NCBI RefSeq assembly: GCF_036971445.1
Contig: NC_091478.1
Location: 79,608,001-79,672,000 of the forward strand
DNA length: 64,000 bases
Direction: 5' to 3'
Origin: Narcine bancroftii
Taxonomy: Eukaryota
Positions 184 through 36,490 of this stretch are shown here, piece by piece. Both the position numbers and the translations under genes were made by a program. The stretch's first letter is position 1. Every line of letters begins with the position of its first letter. The notes below the pieces were generated by a model, which was not told the DNA's origin, made no database searches, and saw only the letters and a program-made list of their open reading frames with translations.

Positions 184-1200
184 AACATAATATAACATAA
201 CAATTACAGCACGGAAACAGGCCATTAGGCCCTTCTAGTCCGCACCGAACCAAACACCCCTTTCTAGTCCCACCTCCCTGCACAATGCCCATAACCCTCC
301 ATCTTCTTCTCATCCATATACCTGCCCAACCTTTTCTTAAATAATACAATTGACTCCGCCGCCACTATTTCTCCTGGAAGATCATTCCACACGGCTACCA
401 CTCTCTGAGTAAAGAAGTTCCCCCTCATGTTACCTCTAAACCTCTGCCCCTTAATTCTTAACTCATGTCCTCTTGTTTTAATCTTTCCTCCTCTTAACGG
501 AAATAGTCTATCCACATCCACTCTGTCTATCCCTTTCATAATCTTAAATACCTCAATCAAATCCCCTCTCAACCTTCTACGCTCCAAAGAATAAAGACCT
601 AATCTGTCCAATCTCTCCCTATACTCTAGATGCTTAAACCCAGGTAACATTCTGGTAAACCTTCTCTGCACTCTCTCCACTCTGTTTATATCCTTCCTAT
701 AATTAGGCATCGAGTCCACGCTGCTGAAGATCCAGCTGCGCTGGGTGGGTCACGTCTCCAGAATGGAGGACCATCGCCTTCCCAAGATCGTGTTATATGG
801 CGAGCTCTCCACTGGCCACCGTGACAGAGGTGCACCAAAGAAAAGGTACAAGGACTGCCTAAAGAAATCACTTGGTCCCTGCCACATTGACCACCGCCAG
901 TCGGCTGATATCGCCTCAAACCGTGCATCTTGGCGCCTCACAGTTTGGCGGGCAGAAACCTCCTTTGAAGAAGACCGCAGAGCCCACCTCACTGACAAAA
1001 GGCAAAGGAGGAAAAACCCAACACCCAACCCCAACCAACCAATTTTCCCCTGCAGCCGCTGCAACCATGTCTGCCTATCCCGCATCGGACTTGTCAGCCA
1101 CAAACGAGCCTGCAGCTGACGTGGACTTTTACCCCCTCCATAAATCTTCGTCCACGAAGCCAAGCCAAAGAAGAAGAATTAGGCGACCAGAACTGCACAC
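184..1200 (-). mobile_element. CR1-clade LINE 3' fragment, interrupted at 709-1176 by a young RTE insertion
   Basis: ORF 264..719 encodes the CR1 ORF2 C-terminus (ERVQRRFTRMLPG...LERRRLRGDLIEVFK...FFTQRVV). Short-repeat tail at ~184-200. The reading frame resumes after 1184 (VQFWSPNY). Confidence 0.9.
709..1176 (+). mobile_element. RTE-clade LINE, 5'-truncated copy 1
   Basis: Encodes GHVSRMEDHRLPKIVLYGEL...FPCSRCNHVCLSRIGLVSHKRAC. (GAA)n tail. TSD AATTAGGC at 701-708 and 1177-1184. Confidence 0.93.
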
Positions 1201-5099: not shown

Positions 5100-7865
5100 A
5101 GAGGGAAAAGCCTTGCCATCTTAATACTGTAGATTTTCTGAGAGGTCAATAGTGAACACCTTCTCTTCAATACTAACTGAACAATCAAGCCCTGCGTAAG
5201 ACTGTTGATATGTTCTCCAGACTTGTAGAGGAGTTTCTCAAAATTACAACTCTGCAGTTTTCAACCCCCATCGCGAAACATGAAGTAACTCACCATATTT
5301 AACCAAGGGTCCTCCCATTCATGCTAAGGCACGTCGCTTGCCTCCAGAGAAACTGCAATTAGCTAAACAAGAATTCCACAAAATATAAGAGCTGGGGATA
5401 TGCAGATCCGACAGCCCATGGGCGTCTCCGTTATATTTAGTTCAAAAATGCACCGGAAGGTGGAGACCTTGTGGAGATTATAGATGGCTCAATGACGCCA
5501 CTATACACCAGATTGCTACCCTGTTCCCCATATTCAAAATTTTTCAGTGAATCTACATGGGGCAAAATCTTTTCAAAAGTGGATTTGGTGCGTGGATATC
5601 AGCAGGTGCCAATGGAACCAGACAACATCCTTAGAACAGTAACAATTACCTCTTTCAGATTGTTTGAATTTTTACATATACCCTTTGGGTTAAAAAATGC
5701 AGCTCAGACCTTTCAGCGAGTTATGGATGCAACAGAGTGTGGCATGGCCAACATCTTCATTTATCTAGACGACATATTAGTCACCAGCAAAACTATAGAA
5801 GGGCACATGGAACATCTGTGTACACTCTTTAGACATCTGCGACAATTTGGACTGACCATCAACCCAAATAAATGTGTTTTTGGACAACAGTCCATAGAAT
5901 TCCTGGGGCATACAATCACCGACAAGGGCGTGGTTCCGCTGCCTTTTGAGATCGATACCATTACTGAATATTCCAGATCAACCACTGTCAAAGGTCTGCA
6001 AGAGTTCTTGGGCATGGTTATGAAGCCTCTGTTCAATCTGCTGTCTGGTCAGGCCAAATCTATTCAGTGGACAGATGCAAATTGAAATGCTATCATAAAG
6101 ACAAAGGAACTAATAGCTCAAGCAACCACACTCAGTTATCCAGTCCTAAACGCAGTCACCACCCTTTCGATAGACGCACCTGCTACAGTAAGTTGATGGA
6201 TAATGGAAGCCATTGGCATTCTTTAGCCACTACCTCTGTGAGGCTGTGAACAAAATACAGCATCTTTGATAATGAGCTCCTAGCAATATATTTCTTCATC
6301 TGTCACTTCGTTACTTTTTGGAAGGCAGACATTTCACCACGTTCAAAGGCCATAAACCCTTGACATTCATATTTTTGAAGGTGTCAGAGCCCTGGTGAGC
6401 TCGACAACAGTGGCAGTTATCCTTCATTTTGGAATTCTCTACCAGAATAATGCACATTTCTGGAAAAGGCAATGTAGTGGCTGAAGCATTTTCCAACTCA
6501 GTTACTCTCCAGGTATCAGCTATGGACCACAGTATTGACTATGCGGCTCTCACTGCTGCCCAAGCACAAGACGGTGAGATGGATGTGCAAAAAAGCTGCT
6601 CTTTTGCAACATGTCAACATGACATCCACGGCCAGTGGGTCCAGCTTTGTGGAGTCGTCGCGTTTTTGATTCTGTCCATGGTCTTTCTCATCCATCCATT
6701 AGATCGACCATTTGTCTGATTTCAGACAGATGTGTTTGCACCGTCTGAAAAATTACGAAGCAAATGGCTAAATCTTGTGTAGCTTGTCAAAATCCATCGG
6801 CATACAAAAACACCACTACAACCCTTCTCACTGGTAACTTGCCGCTTCATCAATGTCCATGTGGACATTGTGGGACCAATTCCAGTTTCACGAGGCTACT
6901 TCACTGTGATCGATAGGTTTACGAGATGGCCTGAGGCTGTCCTCACCGCAGATGGACTCTTGTGCACAGGCATTCCTTAATTCCTGGTGGCTTGCTTCGG
7001 CCTAGCGGCACACATCACTTCTGACAGAGGACCTCAATTTACATCTTTGTTATGGATGGCCTTATCTCGGCTGCATCACCTGCAGTCCAACGGGATGGTT
7101 GAATGATTCCATTGTCACCTTAAATCAGCCTTAATGGCCCATTTGGACGGTCCTTACTGGGCAGACCATGGGTGTTTCTTGGCATTAGGACAACTCCAAA
7201 AGAGGATCTTCACACTTCGCCTGTGGAGCTTGTATACGGCACGCCTTTGGTGATCTCAAGGGAATTCGTTCCACACGGATCCAGTAAAGATGAAGATCAC
7301 AAAGAGCTGCTGAGCAGATTAAGGGATACCTTACGCAAATTATCCCCATACCACCATCATCACATGACAAACGTGTTTCTTTTGTACCACACGAACTGAT
7401 GGACTGTGAATACATGTTTGTATGTAGAGGAATTATGGACAGTCCTTGCAAGTACCATTTGAGGGACCAATCAGGATGTTAAGACAAACGAGGTCAACCT
7501 GCATCTTGGACATTGCTAGGCAGCCTCTATCATTCACGATTGACAGGCTCAAATCTGCCCATGTTGACAAAACTGCTCCTATTCAACAGCCAGCAGTCCG
7601 ACACAGGGGTCAACCTCCCAAAAAACTACCAGGTGATAGTGTCGGTTCTGGGGTGGCGGGGCGGTGGGGGGAGTGGGGGCAGGGTTGGGTAGTGGCACTA
7701 TAGATAGACTACAACTCCCAGAAGTCTAGCGAACCAGCATAGGACATCATAACATGGCACGCACGGTTCAGTGTTTTAAAAAAAGAAAATGTGTGTGACT
7801 CGAGTAAACGAGTTTGAATTTACCTGCAACTGGATGTGTCGTTATTTCACGTTCATCAGCCACCA
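5100..7865 (+). mobile_element. Ty3/Gypsy LTR retrotransposon, 5'-truncated and decayed (RT-RNaseH-integrase, PPT, 3' LTR ~7688-7865)
   Basis: RT motifs FSKVDLVRGYQQVP, PFGLKNAAQTFQR, YLDDILV; RNaseH end HISGKGNVVAEAFS; integrase remnants (VHVDIVGP, ITSDRGPQF, LGIRTTPKEDL); G-rich tract followed by an LTR-like block. Confidence 0.9.
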
Positions 7866-8971: not shown

Positions 8972-10039
8972 GTACCGCACGGATGGCAGTCTCTTCAATC
9001 TGAGGCGCCTGCAAGCTCACACCAAGACACAAGAGAAACTTGTCCGTGAACTACTCTTTGCAGATGATGCCGCTTTAGTTGCCCATTCAGAGCCAGCTCT
9101 TCAGCGCTTGACGTCCTGCTTTGCGGAAACTGCCAAAATGTTTGGCCTGGAAGTCAGCCTGAAGAAAACTGAGGTCCTCCATCAGCCAGCTCCCCACCAT
9201 GACTACCAGCCCCCCCACATCTCCATCGGGCACACAAAACGGTCAACCAGTTTACCTATCTCGGCTGCACCATTTCATCAGATGCAAGGATCGACAATGA
9301 GATAGACAACAGACTCGCCAAGGCAAATAGCGCCTTTGGAAGACTACACAAAAGAGTCTGGAAAAACAACCAACTGAAAAACCTCACAAAGATAAGCGTA
9401 TACAGAGCCGTTGTCATACCCACACTCCTGTTCGGCTCCGAATCATGGGTCCTCTACCGGCACCACCTACGGCTCCTAGAACGCTTCCACCAGCGTTGTC
9501 TCCGCTCCATCCTCAACATCCATTGGAGCGCTTACACCCCTAACGTCGAAGTACTCGAGATGGCAGAGGTCGACAGCATCGAGTCCACGCTGCTGAAGAT
9601 CCAGCTGCGCTGGATGGGTCACGTCTCCAGAATGGAGGACCATCGCCTTCCCAAGATCGTGTTATATGGCGAGCTCTCCACTGGCCACCGTGACAGAGGT
9701 GCACCAAAGAAAAGGTACAAGGACTGCCTAAAGAAATCTCTTGGTGCCTGCCACATTGACCACCGCCAGTGGGCTGATAACGCCTCAAACCGTGCATCTT
9801 GGCGCCTCACAGTTTGGCGGGCAGCAACCTCCTTTGAAAAAGACCGCAGAGCCCACCTCACTGACAAAAGGCAAAGGAGGAAAAACCCAACACCCAACCC
9901 CAACCAACCAATTTTCCCTTGCAACCGCTGCAATCGTGTCTGCCTGTCCCGCATCGGACTGTCAGCCACAAACGAGCCTGCAGCTGACGTGGACTTTTTA
10001 CCCCCTCCATAAATCTTCGTCCGCGAAGCCAAGCCAAAG
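8972..10039 (+). mobile_element. RTE-clade LINE, 5'-truncated copy 2
   Basis: RT (LLFADDAAL) through the C-terminal Cys/His motif. TSD AAAGTCCAAA at 8962-8971 and 10040-10049. 7-bp deletion near 9240 and 1-bp deletion near 9960 relative to copy 4. Confidence 0.95.
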
Positions 10040-11499
10040 AAAGTCCAAAATGTAATAACAAATACAAGTTACAATTGCTTCGGCCCATTTCATTTTAACG
10101 TACTGGACTGCTTTACTCTGCATTCATTTTCCTTGAGAACAACTGACAACAAGACAGACAAAGCAGAACAAACTCAGGATAATATCCATCACAAATGGCT
10201 AGAAGGGGCAAACTTATCGCACAAATGTGATCCTTGTAGAAGTTCGAGATGAAAAAAAAACTGAAGTTGCAACGCCCTTCACAATCTTAGTACGCCCAAA
10301 ATGAATAACATTTAAGTGCAGTCATTTATGTTATGTAGAGAAACACACAGGACAGAGTGAATACAGTCAGCACCTAGAAACAAGGAATCAGGCTAGATTT
10401 ACTTACAGGGTCATTTGTTGATACAAATATTAAGCCAGACTTTCTGCAGAGGCTTCATGGAAAGCACAGCATCTTCAGAAATTCTGAGTCCTGCACAAAC
10501 ATTGCCAGCAACTTTGCATTGCATTGAACAAATCAGATCAAAGAATCATTAACAACAGTAACTTTGAATCAGGCAAAGCCAGCTAAAGAGAGAAAGAAAG
10601 ATTGAAAGAAGAGAAAGACAAAGAACATTTTAAAATGTTAAACATCTCTCACAACAATAAGACACTGAAACATTAAATTACCAACGCAGAGCTTTTTGGC
10701 AGTGGTAACATTAATACAAGTATAAGAAAACAAATTACTGGAGGAACTCAGTAAGTCAGGTAGCACTGTGGAAATGGAGTCTTGATATAATATCAGCTTT
10801 CCATTTCATTCCACAGAAGCAACCTGACCTCCAGCAACTTACTTTTTTATGGTTCACAATTCCAGCATCACCATTGTCTCATGTCTTCAATTACATTTAA
10901 CCCAGCAATAAATTTGAATGGTAAAAGGCAAGATGCCATTTTTAAGACACTTAACTAGAAAACTGCATTTCAGTCTCTAGCCTCCCAAATTCATTGTTAA
11001 ACTGCACATAAGGTGGGCAGAATTTGGTCTGTTTTTGCACCTTCAATAACAGTCGGCACTGTTGACCAATTATGCATTGAAACTGGCTATTATAATAAGC
11101 AACGTGGACAGGGGGGAGTAAAAATATCCAGGCCATCCATTCTCCTCGAGAGCAACACAATGAAAACTTTAAACTTTATTTGAGATGCTTCCAAGAATGT
11201 GACAGTGAACACAAAGACACCTGGAATGCGATTCTGAGCCCACGACTTGCTGGCGGCCTCAATGGCAAGGTTGGCACCAAAGCCAGAAGCCAGGGTGCCC
11301 ACGGCTGACTGATTTGTGGAGATAATTGTGCCTGGAACAGCCCACCTGGTCCACTGGAGATGACTGCTCTGACAGGAGTGGAGGTCTCAGCTCTCTCAGT
11401 GCCTTCTCCAATGCTACAGGAGTCCTGTTTCTTTTCCACGTGGCCCTCCCCTTCCTTCCCTCTTCTGCTCCTCCCTCTGATGAAGGTCATTGCGAACCT

Positions 11500-11885
11500 G
11501 CCCCCCGACATTCCGCCTCTAGATCCAGAGCTGACACGAATCCAGCCTCTGGACCCCCCAAAAGCAATCTTCACCTTCCTCCATGATCGCCGTTATTCCC
11601 GCCCCCTCCCTGCCGACGTCAATTGGTGTCGACCCCCCCCCCCCCCCCCCGTTACTATTAGTAACGAGGTAAGAGTCCGAAAATCCGACTGCCACCGTCA
11701 CCTGCGACTACCTGCCGGGGAGGCGCCTGTGCGGCTCCCGAAAGGGATTCTGGGAATCGTAGTCCCAGCGGAGCCTTGGCGGCGCTGGTTCGACGATCCC
11801 GACTACGATCCCCAGAAGGCAACACCTCGCCGCTGGGCTGAGCGCGATTGGCTGCGCAGCCCCAGGAGGGGAATTTAAACATGGT
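11500..11885. promoter_or_regulatory. CpG-island promoter, probably bidirectional
   Basis: CpG-rich and apparently non-repetitive. GC box 11598-11606; GACGTCA 11615-11621; ATTGG at 11622 and 11847; X-box palindrome GTTACTATTAGTAAC 11651-11665; two divergent ZNF143/SBS-like motifs at 11748-11763 (-) and 11802-11817 (+). Confidence 0.75.
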
Positions 11886-12180
11886 CCCTTGGCATGTTTA
11901 TTTCTGTCCTTGTCGCAACAGACTTTGATAAATCTTCCTAAATGTATTAACAATCCATCTTAGTACAAAATAATTCATTTTTAGGACACTGGAAAATAAA
12001 CTTCTGATTTTTAAACCTTCACAAAAATATAAATTATTGACAAGACATCCTGGCATCTGCTTCTTCCCTCTGAAATGAATGGAATGTATGAAATGACATC
12101 ACATCAGAAAAACTGCAGAAGGTTAACTGGAATCCATGAGGAATTCCAGGAATGCTAACAACTCCGTGGCCAGGTATATT

Positions 12181-12775
12181 TCCTCTACCGGCACCACCTA
12201 CGGCTCCTAGAACGCTTCCAACAGCGTTGTCTCCGCTCCATCCTCAACATCCATTGGAGCGCTCACACCCCTAACGTCGAGGTACTCGAGATGGCAGAGG
12301 TCGACAGCATCGAGTCCACGCTGCTGAAGATCCAGCTGCGCTGGATGGGTCACGTCTCCAGAATGGAGGACCATCGCCTTCCCAAGATCGTATTATATGG
12401 CGAGCTCTCCACTGGCCACCGTGACAGAGGTGCACCAAAGAAAAGGTACAAGGACTGCCTAAAGAAATCTCTTGGTGCCTGCCACATTGACCACCGCCAA
12501 TGGGCTGATAACGCCTCAAACCGTGCATCTTGGCGCCTCACAGTTTGGCGGGCAGCAGCCTCCTTTGAAGAAGACCGCAGAGCCCACCTCACTGACAAAA
12601 GGCAAAGGAGGAAAAACCCAACACCCAACCCCAACCAACCAATTTTCCCTTGCAACCGCTGCAATCGTGTCTGCCTGTCCCGCATCGGACTGGTCAGCCA
12701 CAAACGAGCCTGCAGCTGACGTGGACTTTTTACCCCCTCCATAAATCTTCGTCCGCGAAGCCAAGCCAAAGAAGA
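12181..12775 (+). mobile_element. RTE-clade LINE, 5'-truncated copy 3
   Basis: ORF 12291..12719 matches the C-terminus of copy 4. (GAA)n tail abuts a CR1 3' end. No TSD seen. Confidence 0.93.
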
Positions 12776-24303: not shown

Positions 24304-26022
24304 GAGTAACTAAAAATTACTTAAAAATATCAACATAAAGTAAAATAACTCAAGCCCAGAAATCCAAAACCTGGCATAAAGGTCAACTCCAAGTCCCATC
24401 TCCACCAATCCCATCCCCTTCAATTATCTTTTCATCCACATCATCCAGCTGGTCTACCAATCAACATGTCTTTGGTATGTGAGAAAACACTAGAACACAT
24501 GGGGAAAAGACATGCAATCACAGGGACTACATATAGATTATGAGCTCTCTATAATGATCTAATTTGCATTGAATCTTCACCCCTGGAGCTATGATGCAGC
24601 TACCCTAGTTGTTGGCATCCCAATAGTTCAATAGTGAGCTCCATGTCCCAAGCCAAATTCAGATCACTGGCATCATTTGATCTCCTTAATATTTCTGCTT
24701 TCTGTGCTTCAACACGTGTGGAGCTGATGGTCCTCTACAGAACAGCTAGCTACAGTTTAATATTCCTTGATCATGAACTTATCCAGTTCTTCCTGCACTT
24801 AGTCTTCACATCTTTAGTTGAAAATGTGGAACAATAACAGTTACTTTTTAAAAATATTTTATTTTTCATTTTACATATATATATTCACACAATCTTTCAA
24901 CTTTTATACACAAGTATATTAAATATTTACAAAATTTCCCCCCACTCCCACAAATAAAAAAATACCACCAGTGCCCTCATTTTCATAATTCTTTTTTGGG
25001 GTTATCACATCGTTACATACATTGAAGGGTCAAATTTATAATTGGACCCCTACATAATCCAATGAATGTATCATATTTATTATTTGAAAGAAACAAGACA
25101 TCTGGCATATGAGTGCAAAAAAGCAATAGTTTACCTTTGACCAGTCTTTAAATAACTTGTACATGAAATTCCTTATGACTTCATGGCCTGCTTATTTCAT
25201 GCATTATGCAAAATTCTGAGGTTGATAGATTTGGTACTGGTTCTTATTGCCTTTTTAGTACAGGTCATTTCCATTAAACATGGACAAGGTATGAACCACT
25301 AGCATTTTGAAATAATATCTGTTTTGACTTGGCACTCAAAATGAAAATGCAAAAGTCATATAGAGATATTTTTGCATCCATACTGAACAACTGCAAAGTT
25401 AATCTTTTAATAATTTACATGAGAATATTTTAGTCTATGCTAAAATACTATCAAACCAGTAATTTCTCTAGTGCCAGTTGAGGTGAAGACGGATTTGATT
25501 TAAGTTGAGTGTGGCCTTATTTCTTCTTGGGCATAACTTTTTTTTCTGCTGTTCGTTCACTGCATGTTCCTTATGAAAGATGATGTATCACAGACTTAAA
25601 GTTGACGACCAACTTTCATCATTACATTGTCCTGGGTGTAAAGGTAAGTCAAAAAGAGGCACTTTCATGTTTAGTTCTGTTTCTGAAATTTGGTTCCATT
25701 CTCTTTAATCAAGCAAAGTAAATTTATACCCCAGGATAGGTAGTCAAGTTCTACCTGTTTATCTTTGGAGAACCTTCCTCCTTTGCTCACCTACAAAGCC
25801 ACAAGTAATACAGGTAAATTACCCCTTATCCGAATACCAGAAATCCAAAATGATCCAAACTCTGAAACTTTTTTTGTCCGTGTTTCTATAACGTAATACG
25901 TAAGACAATTCAGAAATTCCGATCAGAGAACGGGATGTAGTGGATGTAAGTAGTACATTATTGAATGTAGATTTTTCAATATATGCTTACTTCAGTTAAT
26001 TTGTGGATATGTAAATATTTGT

Positions 26023-28290
26023 CTTCTTTGGCTTGGCTTCGCGGACGAAGATTTATGGAGGGGGTAAAAAGTCCACGTCAGCTGCAGGCTCGTTTGTGGC
26101 TGACCAGTCCGATGCGGGACAGGCAGACACGATTGCAGCGGTTGCAAGGGAAAATTGGTTGGTTGGGGTTGGGTGTTGGGTTTTTCCTCCTTTGCCTTTT
26201 GTCAGTGAGGTGGGCTCTGCGGTCTTCTTCAAAGGAGGCTGCTGCCCGCCAAACTGTGAGGCGCCAAGATGCACGGTTTGAGGCGTTATCAGCCCACTGG
26301 CGGTGGTCAATGTGGCAGGCACCAAGAGATTTCTTTAGGCAGTCCTTGTACCTTTTCTTTGGTGCACCTCTGTCACGGTGGCCAGTGGAGAGCTCGCCAT
26401 ATAATACGATCTTGGGAAGGCGATGGTCCTCCATTCTGGAGACGTGACCCATCCAGCGCAGCTGGATCTTCAGCAGCGTGGACTCGATGCTGTCGACCTC
26501 TGCCATCTCGAGTACCTCGACGTTAGGGGTGTGAGCGCTCCAATGGATGTTGAGGATGGAGCGGAGACAACGCTGGTGGAAGCGTTCTAGGAGCCGTAGG
26601 TGGTGCCGGTAGAGGACCCATGATTCGGAGCCGAACAGGAGTGTGGGTATGACAACGGCTCTGTATACGCTTATCTTTGTGAGGTTTTTCAGTTGGTTGT
26701 TTTTCCAGACTCTTTTGTGTAGTCTTCCAAAGGCGCTATTTGCCTTGGCGAGTCTGTTGTCTATCTCATTGTCGATCCTTGCATCTGATGAAATGGTGCA
26801 GCCGAGATAGGTAAACTGGTTGACCGTTTTGAGTTTTGTGTGCCCGATGGAGATGTGGGGGGGCTGGTAGTCATGGTGGGGAGCTGGCTGATGGAGGACC
26901 TCAGTTTTCTTCAGGCTGACTTCCAGGCCAAACATTTTGGCAGTTTCCGCAAAGCAGGACGTCAAGCGCTGAAGAGCTGGCTCTGAATGGGCAACTAAAG
27001 CGGCATCATCTGCAAAGAGTAGTTCACGGACAAGTTTCTCTTGTGTCTTGGTGTGAGCTTGCAGGCGCCTCAGATTGAAGAGACTGCCATCCGTGCGGTA
27101 CCGGATGTAAACAGTGTCTTCATTGTTGGGGTCTTTCATGGCTTGGTTCAGCATCATGCTGAAGAAGATTGAAAAGAGGGTTGGTGCGAGAACACAGCCT
27201 TGCTTCACGCCATTGTTAATGGAGAAGGGTTCAGAGAGCTCATTGCTGTATCTGACCCGACCTTCGTCCGGGCGAAGGGTAGACGGCGGCGGCCCCGATA
27301 CGGGCAGGAGCAAGGGGGAGGCGGCGGCCCCAGTCCGGGCACAGGGAGAGCAGCGGCGGCCCCGGCCCCGGTCCGGGCGAAGGGTAGACGGCGGCGGCCC
27401 CGATACGGGCAGGAGCAAGGGGGAGGCGGCGGCCCCAGTCCGGGCACAGGGAGAGCAGCGGCGGCCCCGGCCCCGGTCCGGGCGAAGGGTAGACGGCGGC
27501 GGCCCCGATACGGGCAGGAGCAAGGGGGAGGCGGCGGCCCCAGTCCGGGCACAGGGAGAGCAGCGGCGGCCCCGGCCCCGGTCCGGGCGAAGGGTAGACG
27601 GCGGCGGCCCCGATACGGGCAGGAGCAAGGGGGAGGCTGTGGCCCCAGTCCGGGCACAGGGAGAGCAGCGGCGGCCCCGGCCCCGGTCCGGGCGAAGGGT
27701 AGACGGCGGCGGCCCCGATCCGGGCAGGAGCAAGGGGGAGGCGGCGGCCCCAGTCCGGGCACAGGGAGAGCAGCGGCGGCCCCGGCCCCGGTCCGGGCGA
27801 AGGGTAGACGGCGGCGGCCCCGATACGGGCAGGAGCAAGGGGGAGACGGCGGCCCCGGCCTCGGTCGAGTGAGGCAGACGGAGGCCCCGGTCCGGACAGG
27901 GAGTGGGAGGCGGCGGCCCCAGTCCGGGCACAGGGAGAGCAGCAGCGGCCCCGGCCCCGGTCCGGGCGAAGGGTAGACGGCGGCGGCCCCGATCCGGGCA
28001 GGAGCAAGGGGGAGACGGCGGCCCCAGTCCGGGCACAGGGAGAGCAGCAGCGGCCCCGGCCCCGGTCCGGGCGAAGGGTAGACGGCGGCGGCCCCGATAT
28101 GGGCAGGAGCAAGGGGGAGACGGCGGCCCCGGCCTCGGTCGAGTGAGGCAGACGGAGGCCCCGGTCCGGGCAGTATGGACCGACCTAGGAGGGGAGGCAG
28201 GCCCCTCCAGCCCGGGTAAGAAACCTGCATAGGAGAAGGCCACTCCGATATAAAACCTACGACCCAAGGACCTCGCTGCCACGTCCCAGC
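26023..28290 (-). mobile_element. RTE-clade LINE copy 4: RT 3' half and tail on - (26023-27264) plus a 5' segment that is probably inverted (27266-28290)
   Basis: Uninterrupted RT half (GVKQGCVLAPTLF, LLFADDAAL, FTYLG) to the C-terminal Cys/His motif. The whole composite is bounded by the 11-bp TSD TAAATATTTGT at 26012-26022 and 28291-28301. Confidence 0.93.
27266..28171 (+). repeat. GC-rich 105-bp tandem array (~8.5 units) built from related ~32-39-bp subunits
   Basis: Unit starts GTCCGGGCGAAGG at 27266, 27371, 27476, 27581, 27686, 27791, 27960 and 28065. An extra subunit GGCCTCGGTCGAGTGAGGCAGACGGAGGCC occurs at ~27857 and ~28131. Confidence 0.95.
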
Positions 28291-30242
28291 TAAATATTTG
28301 TATTGTAATGTGAATTCACGTATCTTTAAGTCTGAGTGCATTTTTTAAATGATGTTCCAAAATCCAGAAAAATCCAAAATCTGAAACACTTCTGGTCTTA
28401 TGGATTTCTGATAAGGGGTGATCGCCCTGTATTGTTTAACATGGAGGGCAGCAACAGTCCTTTCAAAGTTGGCACTCACTTCATTCCTTTTCTCCTTTCA
28501 TTCATTTCCTGTGAAAACCACATGGAGTATATACTGTTCTTGTCAAATTATTGGTATCAGACCTCATGAGCAAAAATGTTATGTAGCAATGACCTTGGCC
28601 CGATTTTTAGTACAATTATGAAGTCAACCTTGCAGTGAGCACAATCTGTTTTAGTCTTTGTGAACTTAAGCTGGAAGATAAATGAGCTGTGCTGGGGAAT
28701 AAATTTATCCAAGCTAGTTACTTTTAGCCTACATGAATCAAGGTCAGCTTTTAGCTTTTTTATAGAAAATATTATGTCCTTGAATTGAAGAGTCAGTTGG
28801 ATAAAATGAAAATGTGTTTATGAAAAGAAATTAAAGCAAATTTCTGAAAATATAAGTTCATTATTACCCACACTTACCTATAACTTAAAGACTGGTGACA
28901 ACATTCATATGAACAGCTTTATACTGGCTATGTCAGCTCCAGCTGACAAGAAGTGATTTTGACCTTCCTGTTCAGCAATTTATGGAAGACCTTGGCCGGT
29001 TCAGGAGTGAAGCAAAATATCAGATGCATCTGCAACTCCCAGCTGTCCACGAGCAGATACCAGACCTATGCAGCTGCTACCAGTACAACACATTTGTTTC
29101 AGCAAGAAAGGACAACATTGACTGTTCTTCTAGCCAGCCTCTATAAATTAAACCATGAGATCTAACCAAACAAGTTCAAGTAAATCTAAAAGATTCTTTC
29201 TGAAAACCTTCACTCATGTAAAAATCAAATTTTTTCAGACGATTTTTTTAATGTTAAATTTATCGGGTCAACTATTACATGGATACAACTTCTGAGGGGC
29301 CAAATTTACATAAGGTATATGAAAAATTCTAGATTTTTTTGGCCAAAAATAGTGTTGGCTTTTACATGAGATTGACTTTTACACAAGTATAATTGTTTTT
29401 AAATTTAAGTAGAAACCTAACTAAAACCATAGAATTAAAAGCTCCATTAATAATGTCAGTTATGAACGTGTTTTTGTCACACTCACACACAAAGCATACT
29501 AATGATAATAGAATTCAGTCATTTGGTTCACTTTTTCATTGACATGAATCATCTATTTTGTTGTCTTTTCATCTCAGACATCATGCAGGAAACTACAGGA
29601 ACTATTTTACTCCTAGTGCATCCCAGGAGGGAAAGATGAAATGAAGACAGTTTCCTTTGCAGGGATGACCAAAACTATGAATCATGACTCCAAAATTGTT
29701 ACAAATAGATCCAATTGTAAATTTAGCACAACCTCTTTTATCCTGAGAAGGGCTAGAAAGTGGAAAGTTGCTCAGGGGAACTGGGATGAATAGTGTGAAT
29801 ACATGTCTTGGAAAGCGAGATAAACTCATGAGGAAGAAATAAGTAGGCTGTGTTGATCTAGTTGGATGAGAAAAATCTAGCATGTACTAATGGAGCTATG
29901 TAATTCTGTACAATAATCATAACATTTCAGAGATTCACGTTCAAAACAGTTCATCAAAAATTCCCAAAATTTAATTTAAAAGTCATCTTCATTTATATAT
30001 TTTTCTTAAATCTCAATCTGCCAAAGGCTACACATTGGATAAATTATAGCAGCCATTAAGTAAGTTAAATAATGTTTTATTAGCAGCAATGAGTCTACAG
30101 TTTATTCAATAAAGCAGCTTCTGGCAACGCATTCACTTCCATAGTTTTAACTCATTATCGACGAGAGTATGAGTTTGGTTGCTGTGAGTAACCAAACAAT
30201 TAATATTTCCATTTAATTTTAACTGAAATTCATTGTAAATAT

Positions 30243-31267: not shown

Positions 31268-33642
31268 TGTAGTTATAAAATGGCAATGATCCTCCTGACC
31301 ACTTGAGGGAGTCATAGACTAGTTTGTTGCACCTTGGGTTGGATACAAGATGGATGTCACTACATGGCTGTGTGTGTACTTTAGCTAATAAATTTCTTTA
31401 TTACAATAAAAGGAATATCACATGGTACCAGGAGTAAGAATTAATTGATAGCAGCAGAAAACAGGGAAAATATAAAGGTTCATGATGCTGAAAATTGGAC
31501 TGGAAGTGTCGACCACAAGTAGGGGCTATTCAAACAAAGATTCATGCTGTACCTGCAAGCCATTGGTCACAATAGCAAACCTGATGCATGGAAGATTGCA
31601 CTGCTACTTACCATGGTGGGACCTCAAGCACTAAAGGTCTTCAACACATTTGTTTTTGTCGAGACAGAAGACCAGGGAAAGTTTGACAAGGTTATCAAGA
31701 TGTTTGATGAACACTGTTCACCAAAGAAAAAGAAAAATGTTCAAGAAGTCTGTGTTTTGATCGCACACACATCGGCAGGGAGAGAGCTTTGATACTTTTT
31801 TAACAGACTTGAAATTAAAAGCAAGAGCATGCAATTTTCGATTGGTGCAAGATTCAATGATCTGTGATCATATTAATAGCCATGATCAAGAAAAATCTCA
31901 ATGAGATGTCACTGTGAATCCAAAGACTGATGATGAAGTTACAGCGTTATGACTTTGAATTGGCGTACACACCAATGAAACTTAAAGTGCTGGCTGATGC
32001 ATTGTCTGAGGCAATGACACAGAGTGAAGCACACAATGAGAGTTCAACAGAGACAGATGTGAATCTCCAAGTAAACGTGATCACTGAATTTCTTCCTGTA
32101 CCTGACATGAAATCCAAGCAGATCACAGCTGAAACAGAAAAGGACAAGGTCCTTCAGAAAGTCATCAAGAATCTGAATGAAGGATGGACCAGAGGTGAAT
32201 ATCAGCCATACTACAACATCAGAGCTGAACTGAGTGTGTCAATGGGCTTCTACTCAGATTGAGCAGAATCATCATTCCTTGATCACTGTGATAAGAGATG
32301 GTGAAAAGGGTGCACGAGGGCCACCTTGGAATGGAAAAACGCAAGAGGAGGCCCAGAACTGCTGTTTATTGGGCAGGGATAAATGCTGACATTGACAGGA
32401 TGGCTTCAAGTTGTGAGACTTGTTTGAAGCATCATGCAAAGCAGGCAAAGGAACCCATAATAATAACTGATTTACCAGCAGAACCATGGCAGAAAGTTGG
32501 GACTGATCTGTTCCACGTGGATGGAAAGAATTACTTGCCTATCTATTGAACTATCAAGATATTATGCTGCTTTCTAACATGTCTGCTGCTTGTGTGATCA
32601 AATATATGAAATCAATCTTTGCAAGACATGGAATTCCTTAAATTGTCTCCAGTGACAATGGACTATGCTACAGTTGTAGAGAATTCCAGAACTTTGCAGA
32701 AGATCATGATATTTGACATGTGATTTCAAGTCCTCTGTATCCCCAGTCAAACAGTAAAACAGAGAAAGGAGTCACATAGTTAAACAGTTGCTCAAGAAAG
32801 CACTAGATAGTGGCTCAGATCCTTATCTAGGTCAGTTGAGTAACAGAGCTTCACCACTTGAACATGGTAGGTCACCTGGTAAACTTCTGATGGGACATAG
32901 ACTATGCACCACACTTCCCTACCCTGCAGACCCAAACAAGAACAGAGATGTCAAAGCTGTCAAACGGAAACAAAAGTGTCTGCAACGGAGACAAAAAAAA
33001 CCCCCCAAACTATGACAAGTCAGCAAAAAGCTTAGGACCACTGGCACAACATGTCACAGTGAGGCTCGGAGATTCCAACACTTGGGGCAAAATGGCTACT
33101 GTTCTGGAGGGAGTCAATCTAAGATCTGACACTGTCAGAACAGAGGACATTCAAATACTGAGGAGGAATCGAAAGTGCCTGCTGAAAACACTGTAGGAAG
33201 AGTCAAATGTAGGACAGCAGCAGAGGAAACACCATCTGTGCTAGAAGTAGTGGACCAGCAAACCCGACGCAAACACCTGTGTTAAGAAGATCTACATGTG
33301 TTATCAAAGCACTCGTCAGGCTGTATCTTGAAAAGAAAAGAACTGCACACTTAAAAAGTTTGTGCTGCTGATGTTTGTGTTGAACTTTAAATTGAAATGG
33401 ATACTGTATTAGTGTGTCATGTTGTTAAACATCTCAAGGAAGGGGGATATAGTGATAGAAAGCTAGTAATCCTCCTGACCACTAGGGGGAGTTAGAAATT
33501 AGTTTGTGGCAGCTTTTGTTGGATTCATGATGGATGTCTCCACATGGTCGTGTGTGTACTTTAGTTAATAAAATTTAGTTGTTTTAAAAGCACCCAAGTT
33601 TCTTAATTCCCAAGTTTATTTTACAATAAAATAAACATCACA
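31268..33642 (+). mobile_element. Ty3/Gypsy LTR element with both LTRs; protease, RT and most of RNaseH deleted
   Basis: 5' LTR 31268-31422; PBS TGGTACCAGGAGT 31423-31435 (tRNA-Leu type); gag N-terminus (KIALLLTMVGPQALKVFNTF); jump at ~31870 to KLQRYDFELAYTP; integrase HHCC (HEGHLGMEK...CETC); PPT AAGGAAGGGGGA; 3' LTR 33448-33642. Confidence 0.9.
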
Positions 33643-35444: not shown

Positions 35445-36490
35445 TTGCCAAGGCAGGATGATTTGTGCCTTGGAGGGAAGTTTTAGACTTTGGTGTTCCT
35501 GTTTGCCAATGCAGGATGGTTTGTGCCTTGGAGGGAAGTTTTAGACTTTGGTGTTCCTGTTTGCCAATGCAGGATGGTTTGTGCCTTGGAGGGAAGTTTT
35601 AGACTTTGGTGTTCCTGTTTGCCAATGCAGGATGGTTTGTGCCTTGGAGGGAAGTTTTAGACTTTGGTGTTCCGGTTTGCCAATGCACGATGATTTGCGC
35701 CTTGGAGGGAAGTTTTAGACTTTGATGTTCCTGTTTGCCAAGGCAGGATGATTTGTGCCTTGGAGGGAAGTTTTAGACTTTGGTGTTCCTGTTTGCCAAT
35801 GCAGGATGGTTTGTGCCTTGGAGGGAAGTTTTAGACTTTGGTGTTCCTGTTTGCCAATGCAGGATGATTTGTGCCTTGGAGGGAAGTCTTAGACTTTGGT
35901 GTTCCTGTTTGCCAATGCAGGATGGTTTGTGCCTTGGAGGGAAGTTTTAGACTTTGGTGTTCCTGTTTGCCAATGCAGGATGGTTTGTGCCTTGGAGGGA
36001 AGTTTTAGACTTTGGTGTTCCTGTTTGCCAATGCAGGATGGTTTGTACTTTGGAGGGAAGTTTTAGACTTTGGTGTTCCTGTTTGCCAATGCAGGATGGT
36101 TTGTGCCTTGGAGGGAAGTTTTAGACTTTGGTGTTCCGGTTTGCCAATGCACGATGATTTGTGCCTTGGAGGGAAGTTTTAGACTTTGATGTTCCTGTTT
36201 GCCAAGGCAGGATGATTTGTGCCTTGGAGGGAAGTTTTAGACTTTGGTGTTCCTGTTTGCCAATTCAGGATGGTTTGTGCCTTGGAGGGAAGTTTTAGAC
36301 TTTGGTGTTCCTGTTTGCCAATTCAGGATGGTTTGTGCCTTGGAGGGAAGTTTTAGACTTTGGTGTTCCTGTTTGCCAATGCAGGATGGTTTGTACCTTG
36401 GAGGGAAGTTTTAGACTTTGGTGTTCCTGTTTGCCAATGCAGGATGGTTTGTACCTTGGAGGGAAGTTTTAGACTTTGGTGTTCCTGTTT
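35445..36490 (+). repeat. 58-bp minisatellite, 18 copies
   Basis: Unit TGCCAATGCAGGATGGTTTGTGCCTTGGAGGGAAGTTTTAGACTTTGGTGTTCCTGTT; period 58 (GGAGGGAAG at 35472, 35530, ...). Confidence 0.97.

What the first reader, a model, noticed from the sequence alone, without database searches (positions are those of the whole stretch)
27266..28171. 105-bp CpG-rich monomer array as a candidate tandem promoter head of an RTE element
Seen: near-identical 105-bp units, each made of three related subunits (CCGGGC...GCGGCGGCCCC). A hairpin-forming fourth subunit recurs 274 bp apart, giving higher-order structure. There is almost no CpG decay, and the array runs directly into the putative 5'UTR. Established: rodent L1 uses tandem 5' monomers as promoters. 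Inference: this RTE family may have acquired an analogous expandable monomer promoter, so such copies would deliver a portable CpG island. The array is also stop-free in several frames.
Basis: partly seen in the sequence, partly recalled or inferred. Interest (0 to 1): 0.7.

Follow-up and report, generated by a model that had tools for sequence, protein, structure and literature searches.

The report
GC-rich VNTR head of RTE LINE
A young jumping gene of the RTE type carries a GC-rich tandem-repeat block joined to its front (5') end, rearranged differently in a second record from an electric ray, and this block likely serves as an expandable built-in promoter like that of mouse L1, though its activity is untested.

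Summary
The array is real (906 bp, 79% GC, 116 CpG). It lies inside one RTE-clade LINE insertion (26012-28301, 11-bp target-site duplication). The minus strand holds the 3' half of the reverse transcriptase ORF. The plus strand holds the array followed by about 120 bp of RTE 5'UTR (86% identical over 63 bp to a full-length relative). The head is therefore inverted against the body, and about 2.5 kb are missing. A RefSeq 'formin-2-like' model from Narcine bancroftii is the antisense translation of the same UTR-array junction but with a 169-bp repeat. So the link is not private to this array, and 105 bp is not a fixed monomer: six related 26-41-bp subunits are reshuffled (105, 169, 274 = 105+169), as in the SVA VNTR. 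Three related RTEs share the UTR but not the array. Promoter activity is untested. Open frames, the hairpin and the intact CpGs are explained by composition and youth. Verdict: new variant of a known kind (exchangeable, tandemly repeated LINE heads); interest 0.42.

The parts
26012..26022 (.). Left target-site duplication (11 bp)
   Evidence: Identical 11-mer at 26012 and 28291, the longest shared word between the two flanks
26023..26077 (-). RTE 3'UTR and short A/G-rich tail
   Evidence: Same 3' end in the three other copies of the family in the window and a similar one in relative L001
26078..27265 (-). 3' half of the RTE ORF (second half of the RT domain to the stop), open frame
   Evidence: Translation; Pfam RVT_1 E 1e-13; 74% identity to full-length endonuclease+RT proteins, starting at residue 658 of P0004
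27266..27790 (+). Array, five 105-bp units (subunits A-B-C); begins at the inversion junction
   Evidence: units 1-3 identical, unit 4 two changes, unit 5 one change
27791..27959 (+). Array, one 169-bp unit (A-B'-D-E-C), the unit that is repeated in the Narcine record P0122
27960..28064 (+). Array, a further 105-bp unit (A-B-C)
28065..28171 (+). Array, partial 169-type unit (A-B'-D) plus the first 8 bases of a further subunit; border with the UTR
   Evidence: the junction region 28157-28225 is matched exactly over 23 residues by P0122
28172..28229 (+). Non-repeated segment between the array and the conserved UTR (tether-like); weakly homologous to relative L001
   Evidence: Ungapped 19 of 40 and 24 of 58 identities to L001, shuffle p 0.006 and 0.007
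28230..28290 (+). Conserved RTE 5'UTR segment, cut off at the target-site duplication
   Evidence: 86% over 63 bp to L001:393-455, E 4e-14, about 490 nt upstream of the endonuclease-start codons; also L009 (E 6e-5) and L080 (E 0.03)
28291..28301 (.). Right target-site duplication (11 bp)

Best explanation
The array is a GC-rich variable tandem repeat joined to the 5'UTR of a young RTE-clade LINE, it sits here in a copy whose 5' part is inverted, and it likely acts as the family's expandable internal promoter. Shown: one insertion with an 11-bp target-site duplication; RT 3' half on the minus strand; array plus RTE 5'UTR on the plus strand; the same array-UTR junction with a different higher-order unit (169 bp) in a second record; related RTEs share the UTR but lack the array. 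Inferred: the family gained this head by 5' switching; slippage or recombination between the shared subunit ends reshuffles 26-41-bp subunits into copy-specific higher-order units; polymerase II starts within or at the array, so that repeats are carried in the RNA and a copy keeps a usable head even when its 5' end is shortened; this copy arose by twin priming, with a second cDNA primed in the UTR and extended into the array, the first cDNA stopping in mid-RT, and about 2.5 kb lost. This copy cannot encode the endonuclease, and its head points away from its own RT piece into the flank.
For: TSD and strand layout. UTR homology to L001, L009 and L080, 3 of 83 loci searched, extending weakly to the array border. 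P0122, the only hit among 8000 scored candidates (E 1e-54), matches 28225-28157 exactly over 23 residues. It then cycles C-E-D-B'-A with subunit C at residues 36, 93, 149 and 205, i.e. 169 residues = 507 nt = 3 x 169 bp, and it has C rather than D next to the UTR. Its residues 6-10 need only 3 changes in 15 nt from 28226-28240 (p 2e-4), which reaches into the segment shared with L001. It has two RefSeq accessions on two contigs. The array lies within the TSDs, so it was copied with the element; a self-cleaving ribozyme between array and ORF would have removed it, and none was found. Precedent: tandem CpG-rich monomers are the promoter of mouse L1 (PMC5381506, PMC11602158, passages); RTE 5'UTR switching in Nicotiana (10.1101/2022.11.04.512097, section 12); GC-rich heads with GGCCCCGG on bird RTE-mobilised SINEs (PMC4844689, Fig. 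1 legend). All 18 GGCCCCGG matches of the window lie in the array, against 0.31 expected, though these are copies of three positions in the repeat.
Against: No transcription evidence of any kind was obtained. The array has no GC box, CCAAT, GCCAT (YY1 core) or ACTACnnnTCCC motif, whereas the host-like CpG island at 11550-11900 has four of the motifs scanned (motif labels recalled, except GCCAT). The left end of the array is the inversion junction, so the true 5' end is not seen. P0122 is a gene model without DNA context, shows no RTE ORF, and may be one or two loci. No full-length copy of this family was found (best protein 74%). A 2.5-kb loss (measured on L001) is larger than I recall for typical twin-priming events, and 5' inversions were nearly confined to human L1 in cell assays (PMC4245944, passages). 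Several RTEs use ribozymes and host promoters instead (PMC5786205, PMC8501958, passages). Three of seven unit differences are CpG transitions, so the array is not evidently protected from methylation.
Confidence: 0.5

Rival explanations
1. The array is a family feature but an internal VNTR of the 5'UTR, as in SVA/LAVA. The real promoter or a ribozyme lies further upstream and was lost in this inverted copy, and the repeat affects RNA handling or silencing or is merely slippage-prone.
For: Subunits of 26-41 bp in copy-specific higher-order arrays resemble the 30-50-bp GC-rich, lineage-specifically organised SVA/LAVA VNTR (PMC4432496, abstract) more than long L1 monomers. No recognisable promoter motifs. 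The 5' terminus is not visible here.
Against: In P0122 the array ends after about 640 nt against unrelated sequence with no sign of an extra head in that frame, though a splice could hide one. In L001 the shared UTR seems to start near the position of the array border, which fits a terminal head.
Confidence: 0.27
2. The array is the head of a non-autonomous, RTE-mobilised SINE-like element (GC-rich head plus a piece of RTE 5'UTR), and this insertion is a two-template chimera of that RNA with an RTE RNA.
For: Such elements exist for AviRTE, with GC-rich GGCCCCGG heads, and RTE 5'UTRs often end up in SINEs (PMC5786205, passages). Two templates would explain the 2.5-kb gap. P0122 shows array and UTR but no ORF.
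Against: One template explains both pieces, which come from the same clade of RTE (L001 matches both the UTR and the RT). The head is about 0.65-0.9 kb, long for a SINE head.
Confidence: 0.14
3. A host minisatellite or CpG island, or an rRNA expansion segment, was captured at this locus only.
For: None of the three other copies in the window carries the array (all end within the RT region), and the array has no blastn hit in 83 related loci.
Against: The same junction appears with another repeat order in P0122. There is no Rfam match to rRNA or any other family in the array at E<=1. The array lies between the TSDs.
Confidence: 0.06
4. The inverted layout or the unit count is an assembly artefact.
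For: The window has three N gaps, units 1-3 are identical, and no reads were laid, so the number of 105-bp units is unverified.
Against: A perfect 11-bp TSD brackets the whole structure, and the array-UTR junction is present in an independent public record.
Confidence: 0.03

Closest known systems
Mouse and rat L1 monomer promoters (A, Tf, Gf)
   Same: Tandem CpG-rich repeats of variable number at the 5' side of a LINE, joined to a non-repeated segment before the ORF (PMC5381506, PMC11602158, passages).
   Different: RTE clade, not L1. Units are 26-41-bp subunits reshuffled into 105- or 169-bp higher-order units rather than ~200-bp (mouse) or ~650-bp (rat) monomers. No YY1 core. Activity not shown.
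SVA/LAVA VNTR
   Same: GC-rich 30-50-bp units in ordered, lineage-specific arrays inside a retrotransposon (PMC4432496, abstract).
   Different: The SVA VNTR is central in a non-autonomous L1-mobilised element of hominoids; this one is at the 5' side of an RTE UTR in a probable ray.
SolRTE 5'UTR switching (Nicotiana)
   Same: RTE body and proximal UTR conserved, distal 5' part exchanged between families (10.1101/2022.11.04.512097, abstract and section 12).
   Different: The words 'tandem', 'monomer' and 'minisatellite' do not occur in that paper's main text; the heads there are not described as repeats.
BuceSINE and ManaSINE2 (AviRTE-mobilised SINEs)
   Same: GC-rich head with GGCCCCGG in front of a piece of RTE 5'UTR (PMC4844689, Fig. 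1 legend).
   Different: Non-autonomous bird SINEs; no tandem array is mentioned ('tandem' 0 occurrences). Sequence homology to them was not tested.
Ribozyme-headed RTEs (HDV-like; twister in Perere-3)
   Same: Same clade; an alternative way to define the RNA 5' end (PMC5786205, PMC8501958, passages).
   Different: No Rfam ribozyme match here, and the array upstream of the UTR was copied with the element.
5'-inverted (twin-primed) L1 insertions
   Same: Inverted 5' piece joined to a sense 3' piece within a 10-20-bp TSD (PMC4245944, passages).
   Different: Occurs in an RTE, and about 2.5 kb between the two pieces are missing.

Membership tests
RTE-clade non-LTR retrotransposon | RT related to single-ORF endonuclease+RT elements | tested here: met
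   RVT_1; 74% to ~1055-aa proteins with PF03372/PF14529 + PF00078. The clade name RTE is my assignment from this architecture and recall; no tree with named references was built.
RTE-clade non-LTR retrotransposon | AP endonuclease domain in this copy | tested here: not met
   The ORF piece starts at residue 658 of P0004; no endonuclease match in the window. Explained by the internal loss, so this is a defective copy.
RTE-clade non-LTR retrotransposon | Target-site duplication and short-repeat 3' tail | tested here: met
   11-bp TSD; 3' end shared with three other copies
RTE-clade non-LTR retrotransposon | Conserved proximal 5'UTR | tested here: met
   28230-28291 against L001, L009, L080
L1-type monomer promoter (works like) | Tandem CpG-rich repeats 5' of the UTR | tested here: met
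L1-type monomer promoter (works like) | Present in other copies, variable in number or arrangement | tested here: met
   One protein sequence, two accessions; thin sample, no DNA context
L1-type monomer promoter (works like) | One conserved monomer unit across the family | tested here: not met
   105-bp unit here, 169-bp unit in P0122
L1-type monomer promoter (works like) | Array forms the extreme 5' end of full-length copies | tested here: inconclusive
   Left end is the inversion junction; no full-length copy found
L1-type monomer promoter (works like) | YY1 core in the monomer (Tf type) | tested here: not met
   0 GCCAT/ATGGC on either strand; mouse Gf monomers also lack a functional one
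L1-type monomer promoter (works like) | Transcription starts in the repeats; activity in reporters | not testable with these tools
   No start-site or reporter data
Ribozyme-headed RTE | HDV-like or twister ribozyme at the 5' end | tested here: inconclusive
   No ribozyme family among Rfam hits at E<=1 (27200-28400) or E<=10 (28130-28300). Rfam also found none in 20 of 83 related loci at gathering scores, so its sensitivity for this clade is unproven.
Twin-primed 5' inversion | Inverted 5' piece and sense 3' piece inside one TSD | tested here: met
Twin-primed 5' inversion | Microhomology at the second priming site and internal junction | tested here: inconclusive
   Only one base is shared with the sequence that follows in L001 and L009; the family's own sequence there is unknown
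rRNA- or tRNA-derived head | Homology to rRNA, tRNA or other structured RNA | tested here: not met
   Rfam, ARAGORN 0 genes

The most novel reading that the evidence does not exclude
An active animal RTE family has replaced the ribozyme or plain head of its relatives with a modular VNTR promoter. Its 26-41-bp subunits are reshuffled into new higher-order units (105, 169, 274 bp) from copy to copy. This would be a convergent, faster-turning counterpart of the rodent L1 monomer promoter, and twin-primed copies such as this one would plant outward-facing promoters in the ray genome.
Probability: 0.4. Interest if true: 0.62.

Novelty: new variant of a known kind. Interest (0 to 1): 0.42.

Why it matters
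Tandem promoter heads are a textbook feature of rodent L1. I found no report of one on an RTE-clade LINE in nine searches of the held library (subscription journals, Repbase and Dfam were not searchable). If the array drives transcription, it shows that the solution arose again in another LINE clade. It would also give a natural series (different units on one UTR) for testing how repeat number and order tune activity and escape from silencing. It further explains a false gene model: a RefSeq 'formin-2-like' protein is the antisense translation of this head. If the array is not a promoter, it remains a family-specific VNTR of modest interest.

Tried and rejected
No whole genome is held for this window, so no genome-wide count was possible. 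No reads or contigs were laid, so copy number, the number of 105-bp units and expression stay open. The run search listed 14 rows from 7 studies: four DNA rows of one sample hold 0.80 of the words (possibly the source), six hold 0.27-0.35 and four hold under 0.2. No RNA holder is listed on record, and none was laid. Array, UTR, RT and flank words cannot be told apart in those shares (word counts), so they are not used as evidence. Exact DNA patterns found nothing: UTR in metagenome contigs, array in viral contigs and genome contigs. RT as a single query found no locus in viral or genome contigs, and the alignment found none in viral contigs. A plus-strand frame of the array gave 0 hits among 2718 longer candidates and 3 weak low-complexity hits (40-45% identity, unrelated repeats) among 1.84 billion representatives. 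The protein atlas gave no usable hit. Rejected ideas: coding function of the open frames; a special hairpin; rRNA, tRNA or ribozyme origin; origin of the subunits by amplification of the adjacent UTR, which looked plausible in an alignment but scored only p 0.03-0.47 in 12 comparisons; a twister-like fold that I suspected by eye in 28195-28240 and that Rfam did not support; a conserved TATA box at 28249, which is altered in L001 and L080. Three look-ups of earlier scan notes returned nothing. An earlier count said four other RTE copies; the right number is three.

Full report
Observation. The array is present at 27266-28171. Tandem Repeats Finder gives period 105 (5.6 copies, 98% matches), period 274 (2.0 copies, 97%) and period 169 (1.9 copies, 94%). 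Splitting at the shared subunit start gives the order (A-B-C) x5, A-B'-D-E-C, A-B-C, A-B'-D and eight further bases, with subunits of 32, 35, 38, 41, 26 and 32 bp. The 274-bp period is therefore one 105-bp unit plus one 169-bp unit. All 15 subunit pairs are more alike than shuffles at p<=0.05. The array is 79% GC with 116 CpG and CpG observed/expected 0.85, against 0.36 and 0.24 in the rest of the window.

What is not special. Five of six frames are open in the unit, but 3447 of 5000 base shuffles have five or more open; the plus strand has under 5% T. The hairpin at B'/D is matched by 13% of 300 shuffles, and the last unit plus UTR has z -0.37. The CpGs are intact because the element is young. 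Three other copies of its 3' end lie in the window (707-1174, 8972-10041, 12181-12775) at 96.6, 98.8 and 99.7% identity, and 3 of the 7 distinct differences among units are CpG transitions (read). Array-free RTE pieces also pass CpG-island criteria: three of the five islands found in the window are such pieces.

The insertion. An 11-bp direct repeat at 26012 and 28291 brackets the whole structure. On the minus strand, 27265-26078 is an open frame encoding the second half of a reverse transcriptase and the C-terminus. It is 74% identical to ~1055-residue endonuclease+RT proteins and starts at residue 658 of one of them. I call these RTE-clade from their single-ORF architecture and from recall; no tree with named references was built. 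To identify the right end I fetched 83 loci of related elements. Window 28230-28291 on the plus strand matches L001:393-455 at 86% over 63 bp (E 4e-14), about 490 nt upstream of the first conserved endonuclease codons, and also L009 and L080; the other 80 loci gave no match. Weak ungapped similarity to L001 continues to the array border (19 of 40 and 24 of 58, p 0.006 and 0.007). So the array runs into genuine RTE 5'UTR, but array and UTR are inverted relative to the RT piece, and about 2.5 kb, measured on L001, are absent. This layout fits twin priming. In cell assays such inversions were nearly confined to human L1 and had 10-20-bp TSDs (PMC4245944, passages). Microhomology at the junctions could not be judged without the family's own sequence.

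Is the array a family feature? A search with the antisense frame of UTR plus array returned one protein among 8000 scored candidates: P0122, named 'formin-2-like' from Narcine bancroftii, E 1e-54, two RefSeq accessions on two contigs. It has no Pfam match. It equals the antisense translation of 28225-28157 over 23 residues. It then cycles through C-E-D-B'-A, with C at residues 36, 93, 149 and 205, which is three periods of exactly 169 nt (best-scoring hits read, weaker cross-hits between related subunits ignored). The subunit next to the UTR is C there and D here. Its residues 6-10 need only 3 base changes in 15 from 28226-28240 (p 2e-4), suggesting that it continues into the conserved motif, although a splice-acceptor-like site on the minus strand at that point offers another reading. 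The junction thus exists with a different architecture in another record. The limits are that this is one protein sequence without DNA context and without RTE ORF. It also suggests that the window is from an electric ray or a close relative (inference). The three relatives that share the UTR have ordinary upstream sequence (GC 0.48-0.53, no GGCCCCGG). The array has no blastn hit in the 83 loci, and I saw no GC-rich tandem array next to an RTE UTR in the TRF list for them. The head is therefore lineage-specific.

How it most likely works. The array was copied inside the TSDs, so it was part of the template; a ribozyme cutting between array and ORF would have removed it, and Rfam finds none (sensitivity unproven, since 20 related loci gave none either). 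A lineage-specific, CpG-dense, variable repeat in front of a conserved UTR is where exchangeable LINE promoters sit. I therefore rate the promoter-head reading at 0.5, an internal VNTR without promoter role at 0.27, a SINE-like head captured from a second template at 0.14, a locus-private capture at 0.06 and an artefact at 0.03. Against the promoter reading: no start-site data; no GC box, CCAAT, YY1 core or ACTACnnnTCCC motif in the array, while a host-like island at 11550-11900 has four of the scanned motifs (labels recalled); and the 5' terminus is not visible.

Comparison with what is known. Mouse and rat L1 use tandem CpG-rich monomers of about 200 and 650 bp joined to ORF1 by a tether, and 70-100-bp tandem motifs occur in horse, elephant, opossum and hyrax L1 5'UTRs (PMC5381506, passages; PMC11602158, passages). 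RTE elements of Nicotiana exchange their 5'UTRs (10.1101/2022.11.04.512097, abstract, passages and section 12; supplements not seen). Bird SINEs mobilised by AviRTE have GC-rich heads with GGCCCCGG (PMC4844689, passages), a motif found 18 times in the array and nowhere else in the window. Several RTEs have 5' ribozymes (PMC5786205 and PMC8501958, passages; Ruminski 2011 seen only as cited there). The subunit organisation is closest to the SVA/LAVA VNTR (PMC4432496, abstract and outline only). Passages of PMC13295347 and 10.64898/2026.09.02.747768 added nothing on this head. Nine searches (listings seen) showed no report of a tandem GC-rich head on an RTE or of this family; repeat databases and subscription journals were not covered, so it may be catalogued.

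Verdict. The thing is a VNTR-type head on an RTE 5'UTR, in a 5'-inverted, internally deleted copy. It works, most likely, like an L1 monomer promoter, but it is not an L1 and has no fixed monomer. New variant of a known kind; interest 0.42.

Noticed in passing
window 707-1174, 8972-10041, 12181-12775 (+): Three more 5'-truncated copies of the same RTE, 96.6-99.7% identical; four copies in 64 kb point to a recent burst. Short TSD-like repeats flank the first two (8 and 10 bp); none was found for the third.
   Followed up: partly
window 11550-11900: Host-like CpG island (GC 0.62, CpG o/e 0.89) with CCAAT, a GC box and an ACTACnnnTCCC motif (label ZNF143-type recalled) and a splice-donor-like site near 11668; probably a gene promoter.
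   Followed up: partly
window about 25.8-28.4 kb: The RTE insertion sits inside a short element with terminal inverted repeats, probably a small DNA-transposon derivative.
   Followed up: no
window 31270-33575: Two 126-bp direct repeats at 80% identity enclose decayed coding-like sequence; probably an old LTR retrotransposon (type judged by eye).
   Followed up: no
window 35445-36490: A second tandem array, 58 bp x 18 copies, 96% matches.
   Followed up: no
window 5441-6085 (+): Reverse transcriptase fragment of another LINE family (RVT_1 E 5e-23), not matched by the RTE queries.
   Followed up: no
P0122 (XP_069759097.1, XP_069768499.1): A RefSeq 'formin-2-like' model that is mostly the antisense translation of this retrotransposon head, hence probably a misannotation.
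   Followed up: partly
L009 3875-4045, L029 4014-4200, L044 1248-1408: A different 5' head shared at about 70% by RTEs whose proteins are only distantly related (L009 79% and L044 43% identical to the query), suggesting head exchange; no Rfam family fits.
   Followed up: partly
L079-L083: RTE-like elements in genome contigs records titled as bacterial MAGs, probably host contamination.
   Followed up: no
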